IMG/VR virus record: IMGVR_UViG_2703718854_000005 | DNA length: 21,181 bases | Strand: one strand, 5' to 3' | Origin: a virus | Lineage: Duplodnaviria > Heunggongvirae > Uroviricota > Caudoviricetes | Part shown: positions 4,365 through 19,154 of the stretch, piece after piece | Layout: each line of letters opens with the position of its first letter | Numbering within the stretch: the first letter of the stretch is position 1 | Translations under genes and position numbers: made by a program | Notes under the pieces: generated by a model | Told to the model about the DNA's origin: nothing | What the model saw: the letters and a program-made list of their open reading frames with translations, nothing else | The model's database searches: none

Positions 4365-4422
4365 AAAAAGGGCGGCAGAGCAGTCACGGAGTAAAACTGA
4401 TACCGCCAAACGTCACCAGAAA
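4365..4422 (-). ncRNA. dicF: DicF small RNA (ftsZ-targeting sRNA of Qin-type prophages) with its terminator hairpin and U-tail
   Basis: Minus-strand sequence TTTCTGGTGACGTTTGGCGGTATCAGTTTTACTCCGTGACTGCTCTGCCGCCC followed by TTTTT matches DicF as I remember it. Lies downstream of ydfA-ydfB-ydfC as in the dicB operon. Confidence 0.85.
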
Positions 4423-5462: not shown

Positions 5463-5870
5463 TTATCTTTTATTTGTCCGCTGACGGGCTTTTAGTAATT
5501 CTTCAAAGAGTTTATTGAAGTTTTTTACTCGAGCTCGCATTTCGGCGAGCTGGGTATCCTGTTCTGATTCTGGCAGTGCATTAAACAGCTCAAGGAGCTC
5601 TAGTTCTTTGGGGGATAAGGCAACTGGCTTCTCAACAGGTGGTGTTGGTTGCTTGTCTTCATCGCCAAATAGAATCCATGTTGGTGAGCATTGCAATACT
5701 TTGCTGAGGGCAAAAAGGTTCTTCCCTGTAGGTTCACTATCACCCCGTTCCCATTGTGATACAGACACATGGGAGATTTTCAGGGCTTTAGCAAGAGACC
5801 TTTGGGTGTGTTTGAGGTTTTTCCGACGATACCTGATGCGTTCGCCGATAGTTAAATTTTTTGTTTCCAT
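5463..5870 (-). CDS. dicA: DicA repressor (HTH, cI/C2-like)
   Basis: 135-aa ORF; sequence matches DicA as I remember it (METKNLTIGERIRYRRKNLKHTQRSLAKALKISHVSVSQWERGDSEPTGKNLF...). Divergent from dicC. Confidence 0.9.
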   Translation of the reverse strand: METKNLTIGERIRYRRKNLKHTQRSLAKALKISHVSVSQWERGDSEPTGKNLFALSKVLQCSPTWILFGDEDKQPTPPVEKPVALSPKELELLELFNALPESEQDTQLAEMRARVKNFNKLFEELLKARQRTNKR

Positions 5871-5953
5871 AGTTAGCTAATGCTAAATCGTATTGACTAT
5901 GTTTTTGTTAACATCTATCTTGTTAGTTATGACTAACAATAAAGGTGTTTTAA
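5871..5953. promoter_or_regulatory. Divergent dicA/dicC promoter-operator region
   Basis: Perfect inverted repeat TTGTTAGT-tatg-ACTAACAA at 5920..5939, plus palindromes TTAGCTAA (5873..5880) and TGTTAACA. Sits between divergent repressor genes. Confidence 0.6.
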
Positions 5954-6298
5954 ATGCTTAAAACTGACGCTCTTTTGTATTTCGGTTCAAAAACAAAACT
6001 TGCACAAGCAGCAGGTATTCGTTTGGCTTCGCTTTATAGCTGGAAAGGGGATTTAGTTCCCGAAGGTCGCGCGATGCGTCTAGCAGGGAGGATTTGGCGT
6101 GTGCGCAGTGGATCTGGGGGCGGATCGTGGGTCTCTACGAACAGGCAGCCAGTGATGATGGCGAGATCATGCGACCAAAAGAGCCTAACTGGACTGCCTG
6201 GGCCAATGACGTGCGCACAATGCGGATGCTGGATGGCAGAAGCCACAGACAAATTTGCGAAATGTTTGGTCGGGTTCAGCGAGATCCATTCTGGGTAA
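5954..6298 (+). CDS. dicC: DicC-like Cro-type repressor; 3' extent uncertain
   Basis: The first ~43 aa (MLKTDALLYFGSKTKLAQAAGIRLASLYSWKGDLVPEGRAMRL) match DicC as I remember it. The rest of the frame is G/S/W/C-rich and looks non-protein-like, and overlaps an alternative-frame ORF. The end coordinate is just the first stop in frame. Confidence 0.5.
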   Translation: MLKTDALLYFGSKTKLAQAAGIRLASLYSWKGDLVPEGRAMRLAGRIWRVRSGSGGGSWVSTNRQPVMMARSCDQKSLTGLPGPMTCAQCGCWMAEATDKFAKCLVGFSEIHSG

Positions 6299-6435
6299 AA
6301 AACATCATGAGCCCGTCAAAGCTCCGCGAAAAATGGGACGAACTGGTCATCCGCCTGGGACGTTCACCTGTACAGCGTTGTGTTAATCATATTTCTGAAC
6401 CGGATACAGAAATTCCGCCTGGTTTCAGAGGATAA
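6169..6435 (+). CDS. Hypothetical protein with HTH-like segment
   Basis: Frame 1 is open from 6040 and has protein-like composition (MRPKEPNWTAWANDVRTMRMLDGRSHRQICEMFGRVQRDPFW...). Possible starts are TTG 6094, GTG 6127 and ATG 6169. Overlaps the extended dicC frame. Confidence 0.35.
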   Translation: MRPKEPNWTAWANDVRTMRMLDGRSHRQICEMFGRVQRDPFWVKNIMSPSKLREKWDELVIRLGRSPVQRCVNHISEPDTEIPPGFRG

Positions 6436-6475
6436 GTGTTGATTTCAGGTCATGAGGTAATTTTAAGGGGGACTT

Positions 6476-6898
6476 GTGGCAAAAGTTTTTACACAAGAAG
6501 AGCGGGAAAAAATTAAATGGCAGGTGGTGGAACTCGTGCGCCAGAGCGGCCGTGAGACGTTACGGCAACTGGAAGCTAAAACAGGTGCGACTAGATATCT
6601 GATGAGCGTTCTTGCCAGAGAGCTGGTAGCCAGTGGCGATGTATACAACTCCGGCTACGGGTTATTCCCCTCTGAACAGGCGCGTAAGGACTGGCAAAAC
6701 GCCCGCAAAAAACTCTCGAGGGCAAAGGTGAAGAAACCTGCTGTGGTTGATCCGGACCTTATCTGGTCATCACCTGACGGAGAAATACGTCGCTACGACA
6801 GTCGCCTAAACATAATCTGTCGCGAGTGCCGGAAGAGCGAAGTTATGCAGCGCATACTGGCTTTCTATCAGGGTAATTTTCAGGACGTGGCGCAGTGA
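6476..6898 (+). CDS. Hypothetical phage early-region protein (140 aa)
   Basis: GTG start preceded by an AAGGGGG RBS. Stop overlaps the start of the next ORF (GTGA), indicating translational coupling. Confidence 0.6.
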   Translation: MAKVFTQEEREKIKWQVVELVRQSGRETLRQLEAKTGATRYLMSVLARELVASGDVYNSGYGLFPSEQARKDWQNARKKLSRAKVKKPAVVDPDLIWSSPDGEIRRYDSRLNIICRECRKSEVMQRILAFYQGNFQDVAQ

Positions 6899-7251
6899 GT
6901 GCACCGGCAACCATTCTTGATATGTGCTGTGGCAGCCGCATGTTCTGGTTCGATAAGTCTGACGAACGGGCGATATTCAGCGATATCAGAAAAGAAGGAT
7001 ACACATTACGCAATGGGAGACGCTTGATTATCAGCCCTGACATTATCGCAGATTTTCGTGCATTATCATTTGCAGACGCATCTTTTTCGATGGTTGTATT
7101 AGACCCTCCGCATCTTGAGAGTGTTGGTGATAACGCCTGGATGGGAAAGAAATATGGACGGCTGAATAAAGATGCCTGGCGTGATGATTCGCGACAGAGA
7201 TTTAAAGAAGCCTTTCGGGTGTTGAGGCCGCACGGCGTTCTGATTTTTTAA
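6895..7251 (+). pseudogene. SAM-dependent DNA methyltransferase-like fragment (C-terminally truncated)
   Basis: 118-aa ORF with ILDMCCGSR (motif I-like), VVLDPPH (DPPY-type motif IV) and RVLRPHGVLIF (RVLKPGG-like). Ends right after this motif and both other frames stop within a few codons. Too short for a complete methyltransferase. Confidence 0.45.
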
Positions 7252-7673
7252 TGGAATGAAACGCAAATACCGGTAAGCCAGATTCTGGCACTGACAGACA
7301 GAAAACCTGTTATCTGTCAACGAACAGGGAAAAAACGATAAAACCCACTGGATTATTTTTATGAAAGAGGCATCCAGTGAGTAGATTCGTAAGGCTACAG
7401 ATACGTATATCTGAATAATTAAATTCAGTTCTGTAAATAAAATTTAATCCTTAACCGGATGGATTTCTGCACCCTCAGAACATCAGGAGGCCGCCCGAAA
7501 GGGCGGTAGTGAAATGCGAAAGTTCAAAATTATTATTGAAACGGGAATAGCTGGTGGAGATTTTGAGGATGTATTCGAAGTGGACGATGACGCAACACCT
7601 GAGGAAATTCATGACGGAGCATAAGAAATTTTCTTTAACTACTGCAATTACTCATACCACGAAATAAAAGACG

Positions 7674-7865
7674 ATGAGGAAGAACAAAGTGGCTGATTTT
7701 TGTTCAGCTAAATATAACATCAGTTTTGAAGAGCGGGATGAACTATTAATGGACTATGGTGAGTTACGCGGTGGAAGTGCTGCTGATGTCGAATCCTAGC
7801 GTGATGACTATGAAGCGGGAAAAACTCCGGTCGAAGCATATTGTGATGAGTGGGGCGATGAATGA
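7674..7865 (+). pseudogene. Small ORF interrupted by an in-frame TAG (7797..7799)
   Basis: ATG 7674 gives 41 codons, then TAG, then 21 further sense codons (RDDYEAGKTPVEAYCDEWGDE) ending in a TGA that overlaps the next ATG (ATGA at 7862). Confidence 0.3.
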
Positions 7866-8149
7866 GCGAGATTAATTATCAGGAAGGGCATGAAACGGCG
7901 GGGCAAGCAAAACCAGTGGCATGGCGATATCGCTACGTGAAAAAAGGCGTTACGGACTTTCAGGGGAAGTAGTGGTCTGGTGACTGGAAATATGTACCGA
8001 AAAAAGAGGATTGTAACGACAGGCCGAACTATCAAATTCAGGCCTTATTCACTGCCTCACCAGTCCCAGTTACATCAGAAGAACTGGTTAAAGCTGTGCA
8101 CTTTTATGAACAACTAAAACGCGAAAATCCACCAACATCCGGCAACTAG
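7862..8149 (+). pseudogene. Small ORF (95 codons) interrupted by an in-frame TAG (7970..7972)
   Basis: ATG 7862 gives 36 codons, TAG, then 59 stop-free codons in the same frame to TAG 8147..8149. An open run that long in AT-rich sequence is unlikely by chance. Confidence 0.4.
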
Positions 8150-8403
8150 ATTAATGGATTAACTATGTCGGTTAAACGACCAGCCAACTGAAAAAGCGGA
8201 AACCTGATTACAGGTTGCCAGATAAGGCAATGAGCTACCTGGCGCGGAACGGACTGATAAGTATGGGGAATGTTTTACGATGAACCTTTAGACTAAAGAG
8301 TTTGTAACGCTATGTAAGTGATTTTTTCTGGTTTAGATATTTATATGTCCGGCCAAATTGAGGTGTGTTTAAATGTAATTGCACATTGATTGTAGGAGGA
8401 ATA

Positions 8404-8583: not shown

Positions 8584-8889
8584 ATACAGCGAACTCCATT
8601 GGTTTAGTTGGATATTTACTGTGCTGGACAAAAACGGTTTGCGGGGAAATCTTAGTTAAGTAGAATGACTGCGGGTGCTTGAGGCTATCTGCCTCGGGCA
8701 TGGACACCAACGGCAGATAGAGAAAAGCCCCAGTTAACATTACGCGTCCTGCAAGACGCTTAACATTAATCTGAGGCCAATTTCATGCTAGACACATGTA
8801 GGTTAGCCTCTTACGTGCCGAAAGGCACGGAGAAGCAGGCTATTGTTAACACCAAGCTGTAATGTCCCCTTTGAACCATTCTAAAATGT

Positions 8890-8917: not shown

Positions 8918-10231
8918 ATGATCAAAGAGACTGTTACGATGAGTCATAAGGAACTCCACCGACTTCAGATTATTCAGGAACAAGCTGCGGCACGCATTGG
9001 CATTTCTATTCGGCAGGTTAAACGTCTGGTGCAACGGTATAGAAATGAAGGGCCTTCTGGTCTGGTTTCCCACCGACGTGGAAAGCGTCCTAATAATTCC
9101 TTTTCTACTGAATTCAGAGCAACAGTAATTTCACTCCTCAAAGGCCGTTACGCTGATTTTGGACCTACGTTTGCGTGCGAAAAATTGCGCGAGATACACG
9201 GTTTATCTTTATCCGTTGAAACTCTCAGAAAGTGGATGATAGAAGAGGGGTTATGGCGTGAACGCCGTCGTAAAATTGCCCGTATATATCAACGCCGCAT
9301 GCGACGACCATCTTACGGTGAACTGATCCAGATTGATGGCTCACCTCATGACTGGTTTGAAAATCGAGGCCCCAGATGTACACTGATCGTATTCATTGAT
9401 GATGCCACCAGTGCGTTGATGGCGTTGCGTTTTGTGCCTGCTGAAACAACCCGGGCTTACATGGAAACCCTCCGGGGTTACCTTAATGATCATGGCGTAC
9501 CGCTCGCTCTCTACTCTGATAGACACAGTATATTCAGGGTAAATAACCCAGAGCGGGAAGGTGAGCTGACCCAGTTCACTCGTGCGATAAAGACACTGGG
9601 CATCGAGCCAATCCATGCCAACAGCCCGCAGGCAAAAGGGCGGGTAGAGCGCGCCAATCAGACACTACAGGACAGGCTGGTCAAAGAAATGCGGCTTCAG
9701 AATATCAGTGATATTGAAACAGCAAATGCATGGTTGCCGACCTTTATTGAAGCCTATAACAACCGGTTCGCTACGTCGCCTCGTACTACTGATAATGCTC
9801 ATCTTGATGTGCACCATTCTGAAGAGGAACTGGGTTATATCTTCAGCCTACAGGCGAAGCGCGTTCTGTCTAAAAATCTCACTTTCCAGTACAAAAGCAG
9901 TGCGTTTCAGGTACGCAGTGAGGGCCGGGGATATCGACTTAGGCATTCGGTTGTTACTGTATGCGAGAACTTTGACGGTGAAATTAACGTTCTGTATGAC
10001 GGGAAAGCGCTGGGCTGGGAAAAGTATGTTGATGGCCCGGAGCCTATACCACTGGATGATGAAAAGAGTGTCCATGAACGAGTGGATAATGCCCGTATTG
10101 ATTTACGCTCAAAATACTATGTTAAACCTAAAGCTGACCATCCCTGGCTTACGCGCCGAACGCAAAGTCATCAGCAAGTTAAGCCCCCGAAGTTACCTAA
10201 AAAGAAGCCTGATCCCGATAAAAAAGATTGA
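8918..10231 (+). CDS. DDE transposase with retroviral-integrase-like (rve) core and N-terminal HTH; IS481/ISNCY-like, family tentative
   Basis: 437-aa ORF. N-terminal HTH-like region (IGISIRQVKRLVQRY), rve-type motifs (IQIDGSPHDW ... YSDRHSIF ... HANSPQAKGRVERANQTLQDRL), K-rich C-terminal tail. No istB-like partner downstream. Confidence 0.85.
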   Translation: MIKETVTMSHKELHRLQIIQEQAAARIGISIRQVKRLVQRYRNEGPSGLVSHRRGKRPNNSFSTEFRATVISLLKGRYADFGPTFACEKLREIHGLSLSVETLRKWMIEEGLWRERRRKIARIYQRRMRRPSYGELIQIDGSPHDWFENRGPRCTLIVFIDDATSALMALRFVPAETTRAYMETLRGYLNDHGVPLALYSDRHSIFRVNNPEREGELTQFTRAIKTLGIEPIHANSPQAKGRVERANQTLQDRLVKEMRLQNISDIETANAWLPTFIEAYNNRFATSPRTTDNAHLDVHHSEEELGYIFSLQAKRVLSKNLTFQYKSSAFQVRSEGRGYRLRHSVVTVCENFDGEINVLYDGKALGWEKYVDGPEPIPLDDEKSVHERVDNARIDLRSKYYVKPKADHPWLTRRTQSHQQVKPPKLPKKKPDPDKKD

Positions 10232-15550: not shown

Positions 15551-15850
15551 AAAAATTCCTTAATACTGATAACTTGGCGCACTATACACACGTTCCTGAA
15601 GAAAGCTATAGTTTTTTGATGGGGTTGAAGATGGCTGGATGTCTAAAATAAACATTGCTTCATATGTTCAACTATGCGTTAATGATTGCGTCGGTTTGAA
15701 GAACAGACGATATACGAAGTAGTTTACTAAAGCAGTTCTCATTTCAGGTGTTATTCACTTATTCCTTCTTTGAGTCTCTCCAATTAAGTACGAAGTCGTT
15801 TCTGTTATGCAAACCATTTATGCCGAAAGGCTCAAGTTAAGGAATGTAGA

Positions 15851-16066
15851 ATGTCAAATAAAATGACTGGTTTAGTAAAATGGTTTAACGCTGATAAAGG
15901 TTTCGGCTTTATTTCTCCTGTTGATGGTAGTAAAGATGTGTTTGTGCATTTTTCTGCGATTCAGAATGATAATTATCGAACCTTATTTGAAGGTCAAAAG
16001 GTTACCTTCTCTATAGAGAGTGGTGCTAAAGGTCCTGCAGCAGCAAATGTCATCATTACTGATTAA
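15851..16066 (+). CDS. cspB: Cold-shock protein CspB
   Basis: 71-aa ORF with the CspA-family RNP motifs (KGFGFI, VFVHF). Matches CspB as I remember it; preceded by a long AT-rich 5' leader. Confidence 0.85.
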
Positions 16067-16177
16067 AATTCATCGCTCGTCTGTATACGATAACGAAGAA
16101 GGCTGATGCCTGAGTAGAGATACGGACAGAGTAGTGAATATTGGATCTCTTTAATAAAAAGTAAGGAGGTCCAATAC

Positions 16178-18375: not shown

Positions 18376-18737
18376 GGTAATATTAAATCGGAACATTTAC
18401 ATCGCGGAATGTAAAATTTAAATAAAAAGGACTCTTCCATGAGCCAAAATTCCTGAAATCTTAAGGGTAAGATAAAAGGTCTTAATCAGAATGACACGTT
18501 TTATTAATAAATAAAGCTATTCTTTCATTGCTGTGTTTTTCTTTACAAAAGTAATCCTTGCTATGGGTGGTTAATCATGCGTTAATGGTGTTCTGGTTTG
18601 TTACAAATTTATCTGAAGCAGTCATTGTTATAATTTTATTATTTGTACCTCTTGAGATTTCCTTGTTGGTTTTTCTCTCTGATATTTTTTTTCGGACCAT
18701 TCTGCCCAAGGGCTAATTTCTTCAAAAGGTAATAATT

Positions 18738-18950
18738 ATGTCTAACAAAATGACTGGTTTAGTGAAATGGTTTAACCCTGAAAAAGGTTTTGGTTTCATC
18801 ACGCCGAAAGATGGCAGCAAAGATGTGTTTGTCCATTTCTCAGCAATTCAGAGCAACGATTTCAAAACATTAACTGAGAATCAGGAAGTTGAATTTGGTA
18901 TTGAGAACGGACCTAAAGGTCCTGCCGCTGTTCATGTAGTGGCGCTTTGA
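18738..18950 (+). CDS. cspI: Cold-shock protein CspI
   Basis: 70-aa [73 protein letters not shown] matches CspI as I remember it. Confidence 0.85.
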
Positions 18951-19154
18951 GGTAGACAATATTACAAACCATATTCACTTTAGATGCCCGTGTTGTCATG
19001 GTTCCCAGTATAGAACATCATCTTTTGATGTTTCTGACATGAATCCTTTCGGGGCAAAATGTATCTTTTGTAAATCAATGATGATTACATTTGATAATAT
19101 TTCACAATACTTAAATGCCAGCCGTCTGTCGTTGGATTTAAAAAAGTGAAAATG

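What the first reader, a model, noticed from the sequence alone, without database searches (positions are those of the whole stretch)
6895..7251. Orphan DNA methyltransferase-like gene truncated after the RVLKPGG-like motif
The ORF carries motif I-like and DPPH motif IV-like sequences but stops at 118 aa, and neither alternative frame continues. It is translationally coupled (GTGA) to the upstream 140-aa gene. It may be a remnant of a phage anti-restriction methylase whose 3' part was replaced by the AT-rich segment starting at about 7252.
Basis: partly seen in the sequence, partly recalled or inferred. Interest (0 to 1): 0.45.

Follow-up and report, generated by a model that had tools for sequence, protein, structure and literature searches.

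The report
Dead phage methyltransferase gene in Qin prophage
The 118-codon reading frame is the front part of a small phage methyltransferase gene, killed by one stop-codon mutation and one extra base inside a decaying E. coli prophage; the rest of the gene still lies just downstream, so this is an ordinary pseudogene.

Summary
The ORF 6895..7251 (+, GTG start, 118 aa) is real. So are its motif I-like (ILDMCCGS), DPPH and RVLRPHG motifs and its GTGA overlap with the upstream DUF977/Ren-like gene. The 3' part of the gene was not replaced.

- The stop at 7249-7251 is a point nonsense mutation (AAA Lys119 to TAA).
- The same frame then continues with the conserved sequence WNETQIPVSQILALTDRKPV...
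- A one-base insertion (GGG 7327-7329 instead of GG) shifts the frame.
- The ancestral stop is at 7382-7384.
- Repairing both lesions gives a 162-aa protein that is 83-88% identical to intact E. coli prophage proteins of 157-162 aa.

The family is a large phage group of about 155-residue class I SAM methyltransferases (phrog_954 and the PADLOC MTase_II/orphan MTase models). It has an invariant DPPH and conserved residues in the lost C-terminus, including Lys119 itself.

The locus lies in a Qin-like (DicA/DicC/DicF) defective prophage, next to other pseudogenes and an IS element. An identical allele is present in hundreds of complete E. coli genomes. RefSeq calls it a 118-aa protein in some of them and a "frameshifted; internal stop" pseudogene in others. 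It is already known and of low interest.

The parts
6476..6898 (+). Upstream gene (140 aa, DUF977 / Ren-like exclusion protein family). Its TGA stop overlaps the methyltransferase GTG start as GTGA.
   Evidence: Pfam DUF977 E=5e-29; phrog_142 'Ren-like exclusion protein' E=2e-47; the GTGA overlap is conserved in all four aligned alleles.
6895..7384 (+). Whole methyltransferase pseudogene. It has 162 ancestral codons plus the stop, disrupted by one nonsense mutation and one +1 insertion.
   Evidence: Six-frame reading; DNA alignment to the intact allele of E. coli 2014C-3655; the repaired translation is full length; tblastn finds full-length phage homologs.
6895..7251 (+). The open part of the pseudogene: the 118-aa N-terminal fragment (strands 1 to most of 5 of the Rossmann fold).
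   Evidence: The exact protein is in databases on at least 1000 contigs as WP_001310834.1-type 'class I SAM-dependent methyltransferase'.
6913..6936 (+). Motif I-like SAM-binding loop ILDMCCGS (residues 7-14).
   Evidence: L8, D9, C12 and G13 are at least 90% conserved in the 90-sequence alignment.
7102..7113 (+). Motif IV catalytic tetrapeptide DPPH (residues 70-73).
   Evidence: Invariant in the 90-sequence alignment; it follows strand 64-69 in the model.
7216..7236 (+). RVLRPHG motif (residues 108-114), at the end of the long helix and the start of strand 5.
   Evidence: R108 is invariant; V109, L110 and G114 are at least 90% conserved; helix 95-109 and strand 110-121 in the model.
7249..7251 (+). 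Premature stop TAA. T at 7249 replaces the A of an AAA Lys119 codon.
   Evidence: Alignment column 371 reads T in the window and 13E0767 alleles and A in the intact 2014C-3655 and the O157 alleles. K119 is at least 90% conserved in the family.
7252..7326 (+). Retained, still in-frame codons 120-144 (WNETQIPVSQILALTDRKPVICQRT) of the ancestral gene.
   Evidence: W120 and P138 are at least 90% conserved.
7327..7329 (+). GGG run carrying a +1 G insertion (intact alleles have GG). This is the frameshift.
   Evidence: Alignment column 449 is a gap in the intact 2014C-3655 and the O157 alleles.
7330..7384 (+). Last ancestral codons, now in the +1 frame (KNDKTHWIIFMKEASSE), ending at the ancestral stop TAG 7382-7384.
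   Evidence: T150, F155 and K157 are at least 90% conserved in the family.

Best explanation
The feature is a pseudogene of a small phage-borne class I SAM-dependent methyltransferase. The intact family is about 155-162 aa, has a DPPH catalytic motif and is labelled DNA or orphan methyltransferase in phage and defence databases. The gene sits in the early-right (replication/nin-like) operon of a Qin-like defective lambdoid prophage of E. coli.

Two small lesions inactivated the ancestral 162-codon gene:
- an A-to-T transversion at 7249 that turns the conserved Lys119 codon AAA into TAA;
- a +1 G insertion in a GG run at 7327-7329.

The rest of the coding sequence is still in place up to the old stop at 7382-7384. 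What can still be translated, coupled to the upstream DUF977 gene through the GTGA overlap, is a 118-aa fragment. This fragment lacks the end of strand 5, the following helix and strands 6 and 7 of the seven-stranded Rossmann sheet.

Shown: the lesions, the homology, the fold of an intact relative and the prophage context. Inferred: that the fragment cannot methylate, that the ancestral target was DNA, and that the ancestral role was protecting phage DNA from host restriction.
For: 1. Lesions. DNA alignment with the intact allele WP_001275735.1 of E. coli 2014C-3655 shows exactly one nonsense change and one 1-bp insertion, and is otherwise collinear over 6895-7384.
2. Full-length relatives. 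tblastn of the repaired protein finds 244 phage records covering at least 80% of it, for example Stx2c phages at 84% over 162 aa, and Klebsiella, Salmonella, Erwinia and Pectobacterium phages. The 120 closest proteins in the 5.8-billion set are almost all 155-255 aa. Nearly all of the 150 listed representatives (of 2,030 found) align through residue 155-160.
3. The lost part is conserved: K119, W120, P138, T150, F155 and K157 are at least 90% conserved.
5. Family labels: phrog_954 E=7e-80, PADLOC MTase_II E=2e-71 and oMTase E=1e-47.
6. Decay signature.
   - The window allele departs from at least 90% consensus residues at 8 positions within the open 118 codons: H36Y, C39R, D40N, P58S, F69L, R76S, T94A, G102R.
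   - Its branch carries 12 non-synonymous to 6 synonymous changes, against 7:12 on the intact sister branch (p=0.10) and 32:93 between two intact genes (p=0.0009).
7. Context.
   - DicA, DicC, ydfABC, DicF and relBE place the locus in a Qin-like defective prophage.
   - The next two genes downstream are also pseudogenes, followed by an IS element.
   - RefSeq flags the 98.8%-identical allele of strain 13E0767 as 'frameshifted; internal stop'.
   - A paralogous copy in O157:H7 has an independent W95 stop.
Against: - The exact 118-aa product is very widespread: at least 1000 contigs, a 385-member cluster that is almost all 118 aa, and 382 complete-genome records at 99% or higher identity. RefSeq annotates it as a normal protein in many genomes, so retention of the short ORF by selection cannot be formally excluded.
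- The N:S excess on the window branch is not significant against its sister branch alone (p=0.10).
- No experimental data on the activity or target of any family member were found. Structural neighbours are generic class I methyltransferases, including RNA and small-molecule enzymes, so 'DNA' rests on database labels and the DPPH motif.
Confidence: 0.93

Rival explanations
1. The 118-aa fragment is a functional, selectively retained short protein. It could for example bind SAM, act as a dominant-negative or regulatory polypeptide, or be one half of a split enzyme.
For: The exact sequence occurs on at least 1000 contigs, and its 90% cluster is almost uniformly 118 aa. The start stays translationally coupled to DUF977. 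The SAM-binding motifs and DPPH are retained.
Against: - All carriers share 99% or higher DNA identity, so the spread is by descent within one cryptic prophage, not convergent conservation.
- Eight substitutions hit at least 90% conserved positions, and the branch N:S is 12:6.
- Two strands of the core sheet and conserved C-terminal residues are missing.
- The downstream remainder has no start codon and carries its own frameshift, so a split enzyme is unlikely.
- The neighbouring genes are pseudogenes too.
Confidence: 0.04
2. One reading: a recombination or insertion event replaced the 3' part of the gene with unrelated AT-rich DNA starting at about 7252.
For: GC falls slightly after 7252 (46.5% to 40.9%), and the ORF ends there.
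Against: Bases 7252-7384 align base for base with the 3' ends of intact alleles. They encode the conserved WNETQIP...KTHW..F.K residues. The difference at the ORF end is a single A-to-T change.
Confidence: 0.01
3. The stop and frameshift are sequencing or assembly errors in this window, and the real gene is intact.
For: Both lesions lie in or next to homopolymer runs (TTTTTT-AA at 7244-7251; GGG-AAAAAA at 7327-7335), where some platforms make errors.
Against: The same sequence is 100% identical over 6400-7500 in at least 30 independently sequenced complete genomes listed (ATCC 8739, W, IAI39, 042 and others), and 382 records are at 99% or higher identity. The nonsense change is a substitution, not an indel.
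Confidence: 0.01
4. Programmed recoding (stop-codon readthrough plus a -1/+1 frameshift) still yields a full-length enzyme.
For: Both lesions lie at slippery-looking homopolymer runs.
Against: Intact relatives need no recoding. There is no known efficient UAA readthrough in E. coli (established knowledge). No Rfam element lies in the region. Two independent recoding events would be required. The decay signature argues for loss of function.
Confidence: 0.01

Closest known systems
Intact E. coli prophage alleles of the same gene (e.g. WP_001275735.1, 157 aa, strain 2014C-3655; P0001/P0002, 162 aa)
   Same: They occupy the same position after a DUF977 gene with the same GTGA overlap. DNA identity is about 90% and protein identity 83-88% to the repaired window sequence, and all motifs are the same.
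   Different: They have AAA at codon 119 and GG instead of GGG, so they are open to residue 157-162. They keep the consensus residues H36, C39, D40, P58, F69, R76 and G102, which the window allele has lost.
phrog_954 / PADLOC MTase_II (PDLC03288) and oMTase (PDLC03730): small phage 'DNA methyltransferase' family
   Same: Strong profile matches over the whole repaired protein (E=7e-80, 2e-71, 1e-47). The family has an invariant DPPH, and its genes lie in the early regions of temperate phages of many hosts.
   Different: The window copy is a disrupted member. The database names are annotations; I found no experimentally characterised member, target base or recognition sequence.
Qin (Kim) cryptic prophage of E. 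coli K-12 and its relatives
   Same: dicA, dicC, ydfA/B/C, DicF, dicB, relBE, hokD, ydfU/T and cspB/F appear in the same order as in ATCC 8739.
   Different: This window additionally lacks about 1.2 kb between dicC and the O-like gene and carries an intact ISNCY transposase ORF. That the K-12 Qin itself lacks this DUF977-methyltransferase module is my recollection and was not tested.
Amino-group (N6-A / N4-C / N2-G) methyltransferases with a (D/N/S)PP(Y/F/W/H) motif, e.g. Trm11, TrmN6/TrmM, CamA
   Different: Only 13-24% identity, and no better than generic small-molecule methyltransferases. There is no Pfam N6_N4_Mtase, MT-A70 or Dam match. The phage protein has no separate target-recognition domain, and few helices are predicted in its N-terminal half.
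YfdM, the 'putative methyltransferase' of K-12 prophage CPS-53
   Same: It is also a short prophage ORF annotated as a methyltransferase remnant, discussed in bioRxiv 10.1101/413146.
   Different: No sequence similarity to this family (BLASTP E=9.3). It is unrelated.

Membership tests
Small phage class I SAM methyltransferase family (phrog_954 / PADLOC PDLC03288) | Significant profile match | tested here: met
   phrog_954 E=6.7e-80 over residues 5-161 of the repaired protein. PADLOC MTase_II E=2.4e-71 for the intact relative P0001. The 118-aa fragment alone just passes Pfam Methyltransf_11 (21.6 bits against a cut-off of 21.2).
Small phage class I SAM methyltransferase family (phrog_954 / PADLOC PDLC03288) | Conserved catalytic and SAM-binding residues (D9, C12-G13, D30, D53, DPPH 70-73, R108) | tested here: met
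   All are present in the window ORF. However, 8 other positions with at least 90% consensus are substituted.
Small phage class I SAM methyltransferase family (phrog_954 / PADLOC PDLC03288) | Complete catalytic domain of about 155 aa, including strands 6-7 and conserved K119, W120, P138, T150, F155, K157 | tested here: not met
   The ORF stops at codon 119 (TAA 7249-7251), and the remainder is frameshifted. Family coverage runs through residue about 157. Strands lie at 140-144 and 150-156 in the model. It is therefore a pseudogene of the family, not a functional member.
Small phage class I SAM methyltransferase family (phrog_954 / PADLOC PDLC03288) | Class I (Rossmann) methyltransferase fold | tested here: met
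Small phage class I SAM methyltransferase family (phrog_954 / PADLOC PDLC03288) | DNA methylation activity and a recognition sequence | not testable with these tools
   No characterised member was found in the literature searches. The structural neighbours do not discriminate DNA from RNA or small-molecule targets.
Canonical DNA amino-methyltransferase families (Pfam N6_N4_Mtase, MT-A70, Dam/MethyltransfD12) | Match to the family profile | tested here: not met
   A Pfam scan at E up to 1 returned only Methyltransf_11 and Methyltransf_25. NCBIfam gave only sub-threshold hits. No PDB sequence relative was found.
Type II restriction-modification system | Cognate restriction endonuclease gene adjacent | tested here: not met
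   The neighbours are DUF977 upstream and a DUF7167 pseudogene downstream. In intact phages the neighbours are small hypothetical early genes. The gene is orphan by context.
YfdM (CPS-53) putative methyltransferase | Sequence similarity | tested here: not met
   BLASTP E=9.3.

The most novel reading that the evidence does not exclude
The 118-aa N-terminal fragment, still translationally coupled to the DUF977 gene and carried unchanged by over a thousand E. coli assemblies, is not junk. It would be a domesticated short protein, for example a SAM-binding or interfering polypeptide acting on incoming phages that encode the intact enzyme. Separately, the intact roughly 155-aa DPPH family, which has no target-recognition domain and an unusually helix-poor fold, may be a biochemically uncharacterised kind of minimal phage nucleic-acid methyltransferase.
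Probability: 0.04. Interest if true: 0.4.

Novelty: already known. Interest (0 to 1): 0.08.

Why it matters
It matters little biologically. This is one more decayed gene in a defective lambdoid prophage that is fixed in many E. coli lineages.

Its practical value is for annotation. RefSeq gives the same allele two different treatments: a 118-aa 'class I SAM-dependent methyltransferase' in some genomes and a 'frameshifted; internal stop' pseudogene in others. Methylome or R-M surveys that count it as a methyltransferase will overcount.

The intact family (2,030 50%-identity clusters, found in phages of Proteobacteria, Firmicutes and Actinobacteria) appears to be uncharacterised. It might deserve a test of activity, but that concerns the family, not this locus.

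Tried and rejected
1. K-12 YfdM as a relative. It is annotated 'putative methyltransferase' and discussed in bioRxiv 10.1101/413146. There is no similarity, and YfdN is likewise unrelated to the DUF977 gene.
2. Identifying the source genome through the unique dicC/O-like deletion junction. It has no full match among 5,426 complete E. coli genomes and no exact match in GTDB species representatives. The source strain stays unknown.
3. Sequence search of the PDB: only 1ve3 at E=1. NCBIfam: only sub-threshold hits.
4. Fold searches to decide DNA versus RNA target. The hits are generic class I methyltransferases with no specific nearest family.
5. Literature searches for a characterised member (DPPH motif, DUF977 plus methyltransferase, Qin prophage methyltransferase, orphan prophage methyltransferases, M.EcoGI/GIX) found nothing relevant. 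M.EcoGIX is a plasmid ssDNA methyltransferase and is not this family.
6. A promoter/terminator scan of 5800-8000 gave only consensus-level hits. The 'terminator' at 7217-7240 lies inside the coding sequence and is also present in intact alleles, so it is not informative.
7. An Rfam scan found no RNA element in 6895-7514.

Full report
**What is at the coordinates**

The window has an ORF at 6895..7251 on the + strand, with a GTG start and 118 codons. Its GTG overlaps the TGA stop of the preceding 140-aa ORF (6476..6898) as GTGA. That overlap is identical in four aligned alleles from different prophages.

The product carries three motifs:
- ILDMCCGS, motif I-like, at 6913-6936;
- DPPH, motif IV, at 7102-7113;
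- RVLRPHG at 7216-7236.

In a 90-sequence alignment of the family, D70-P71-P72-H73, D30, P48 and R108 are invariant. L8, D9, C12, G13, V109, L110 and G114 are at least 90% conserved. The descriptive part of the finding is therefore correct.

**How the gene is truncated**

Reading the three forward frames past the stop shows that the frame of the ORF itself continues after TAA 7249-7251 with WNETQIPVSQILALTDRKPVICQRTGKKR*. The +1 frame then reads KNDKTHWIIFMKEASSE*, ending at 7382-7384.

I aligned 6880-7400 with three other E. coli alleles. Relative to the intact gene of strain 2014C-3655 (WP_001275735.1, 157 aa), the window differs by point substitutions plus two disabling changes:
- T instead of A at 7249, which turns AAA Lys119 into TAA;
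- an extra G in a GG run, giving GGG at 7327-7329.

Reverting both gives an uninterrupted 162-codon gene. The 3' part was therefore not replaced. GC falls only from 46.5% to 40.9% after 7252, and that stretch is homologous to the 3' ends of intact genes.

**What family it is**

- The repaired protein matches phrog_954 'DNA methyltransferase' at E=7e-80.
- The intact relative P0001 matches the PADLOC models MTase_II (E=2e-71) and orphan MTase (E=1e-47).
- Pfam gives only a borderline Methyltransf_11 hit for the fragment.
- NCBIfam and a PDB sequence search give nothing significant.
- tblastn against phage genomes finds 254 records, 244 of which cover at least 80% of the 162 residues. They include Stx2c phages (84%), Klebsiella, Salmonella, Erwinia and Pectobacterium phages, and more distant Gordonia, Streptococcus, Vibrio and Listeria phages.
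- The 120 nearest proteins in the large protein set are nearly all 155-255 aa.
- An exhaustive HMMER scan of 1.84 billion representatives finds 2,030 clusters, and nearly all of the 150 listed align through residue 155-160.
- The residues lost or scrambled in the window include K119, W120, P138, T150, F155 and K157, all at least 90% conserved.

**Fold**

The 118-aa fragment therefore lacks the end of strand 5, the following helix and strands 6 and 7 of the core sheet. That it cannot fold or act is an inference from this. That the target is DNA rests on database labels and the DPPH motif, not on an experiment I could find.

**Context**

The window is a Qin-like defective lambdoid prophage of E. 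coli. From left to right it contains:
- integrase, excisionase, exonuclease, ydfD, dicB and DicF RNA (4370-4421, minus strand);
- ydfC/B/A and dicA (5463-5870, minus strand);
- then, on the + strand, dicC, an O-like remnant, DUF977 and the methyltransferase;
- two further pseudogenes, a sok RNA and an ISNCY transposase;
- flxA, relBE, hokD, ydfU/T, cspB/F and lysis genes.

In intact phages the methyltransferase lies in the same early-right operon, after the replication genes and often after a DUF977 gene. No restriction enzyme gene is adjacent, so 'orphan' holds by context.

**Distribution**

- Bases 6400-7500 are 100% identical in at least 30 complete genomes listed, including ATCC 8739, W, IAI39, 042 and UMNK88.
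- The gene region is found in 901 of 5,426 genomes. Of the matching records, 382 are at 99% or higher identity, 98 at 95-99% and about 400 at 80-90%.
- The exact 118-aa protein is on at least 1000 contigs. Its 90% cluster has 385 members, of which nearly all those listed are 118 aa.
- RefSeq treats the allele inconsistently. It is a normal 118-aa protein in ATCC 8739. The 98.8%-identical 13E0767 allele, which has the same two lesions, is a 'frameshifted; internal stop' pseudogene.
- A paralogous copy in O157:H7 strain 4276 has an independent TGG-to-TAG stop at W95. This gene is therefore repeatedly lost in resident prophages.

**Evidence of decay**

Within the open 118 codons, the window allele departs from residues that are at least 90% conserved among the 120 closest homologs at eight positions: H36Y, C39R, D40N, P58S, F69L, R76S, T94A and G102R.

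I used a Klebsiella phage gene as outgroup. The window branch carries 12 non-synonymous and 6 synonymous changes, against 7 and 12 on the intact sister branch (Fisher p=0.10) and 32 and 93 between the two intact genes (p=0.0009). This is suggestive of relaxed constraint but not conclusive on its own.

**Verdict**

The proposed cause, replacement of the 3' end, is wrong. The gene is an ordinary pseudogene with one nonsense mutation and one frameshift, in a decaying prophage, and it is already present and in part already flagged as such in public annotation.

The rival explanations are a functional short protein, a sequencing error and programmed recoding. Each is unlikely for the reasons listed in the rival-explanations section.

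The only mildly interesting residue is that the intact family seems biochemically uncharacterised. It is a very small DPPH methyltransferase without a recognisable target-recognition domain.

Noticed in passing
window 5954-6435 (junction at 6080/6081): About 1.2 kb is deleted between dicC and the O-like replication gene, at a short imperfect repeat (GTCTACAGGAGGCATCTGGCG / GGGTAGCAGGGAGGATTTGGCG in ATCC 8739). This removes the YdaT/cII-like gene and about two thirds of the O-like gene. It creates a chimeric 114-aa ORF whose first ~43 residues are DicC and whose remainder is out-of-frame sequence. The junction is absent from 5,426 complete E. coli genomes and from GTDB species representatives, so the source strain is not in those sets (phrog_391 match of ORF 6094-6435).
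   Followed up: partly
window 7515-7697 and about 7863-8284: The two genes after the methyltransferase are also pseudogenes. One is DUF7167 with in-frame stops (MRKFKIIIETG...GA*EIF...). The other is a hypothetical gene with a frameshift and a stop, as RefSeq marks them in ATCC 8739 and 13E0767. The whole module is decaying.
   Followed up: partly
window 8673-8844 (+) and 8918-10231 (+): There is a sok antitoxin RNA match (Rfam RF01794, 104 bits). It lies immediately upstream of an intact 437-aa ISNCY-type transposase ORF. The corresponding transposase is truncated in ATCC 8739. I did not look for a hok toxin ORF.
   Followed up: no
window 4370-4421 (-): DicF small RNA (Rfam RF00039, 76.7 bits). 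It confirms the Qin/dic identity of the prophage.
   Followed up: no
window 15690-16082 (+) and 18592-18977 (+): Two cspA-type thermoregulator 5' leaders (RF01766), presumably those of the prophage cold-shock genes (cspB and another csp).
   Followed up: no
L004 1501-1974 (E. coli O157:H7 strain 4276, CPS-53-like element after yfdR): A paralogous copy of the same methyltransferase gene (88% identity) carries an independent nonsense mutation W95* (TGG to TAG). It is widespread in O157:H7 genomes.
   Followed up: partly
P0006 (ENA metagenome protein, 133 aa): This is the window allele (including S76 and S100) but with GAA (Glu) at codon 119 instead of TAA, and with the same +1 G frameshift. It is either a secondary change of the stop codon or a read error, and only 2 member sequences carry it.
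   Followed up: no
family alignment A2 / model mb3ff9c11df68 (intact relative P0001): The intact family is unusually minimal, about 155 aa. No helices are predicted between strands 1 and 4, there is a small beta-hairpin at 34-46, and there is no separate target-recognition domain. A second length class of about 248 aa has a C-terminal extension, and many distant members have N-terminal extensions of 50-80 aa.
   Followed up: partly
RefSeq annotation of the same allele (L001 9496-9852 vs L002 1546-1990): PGAP annotates the disrupted gene as a bona fide 118-aa protein (WP_001310834.1) in some genomes and as a 'frameshifted; internal stop' pseudogene in others.
   Followed up: yes
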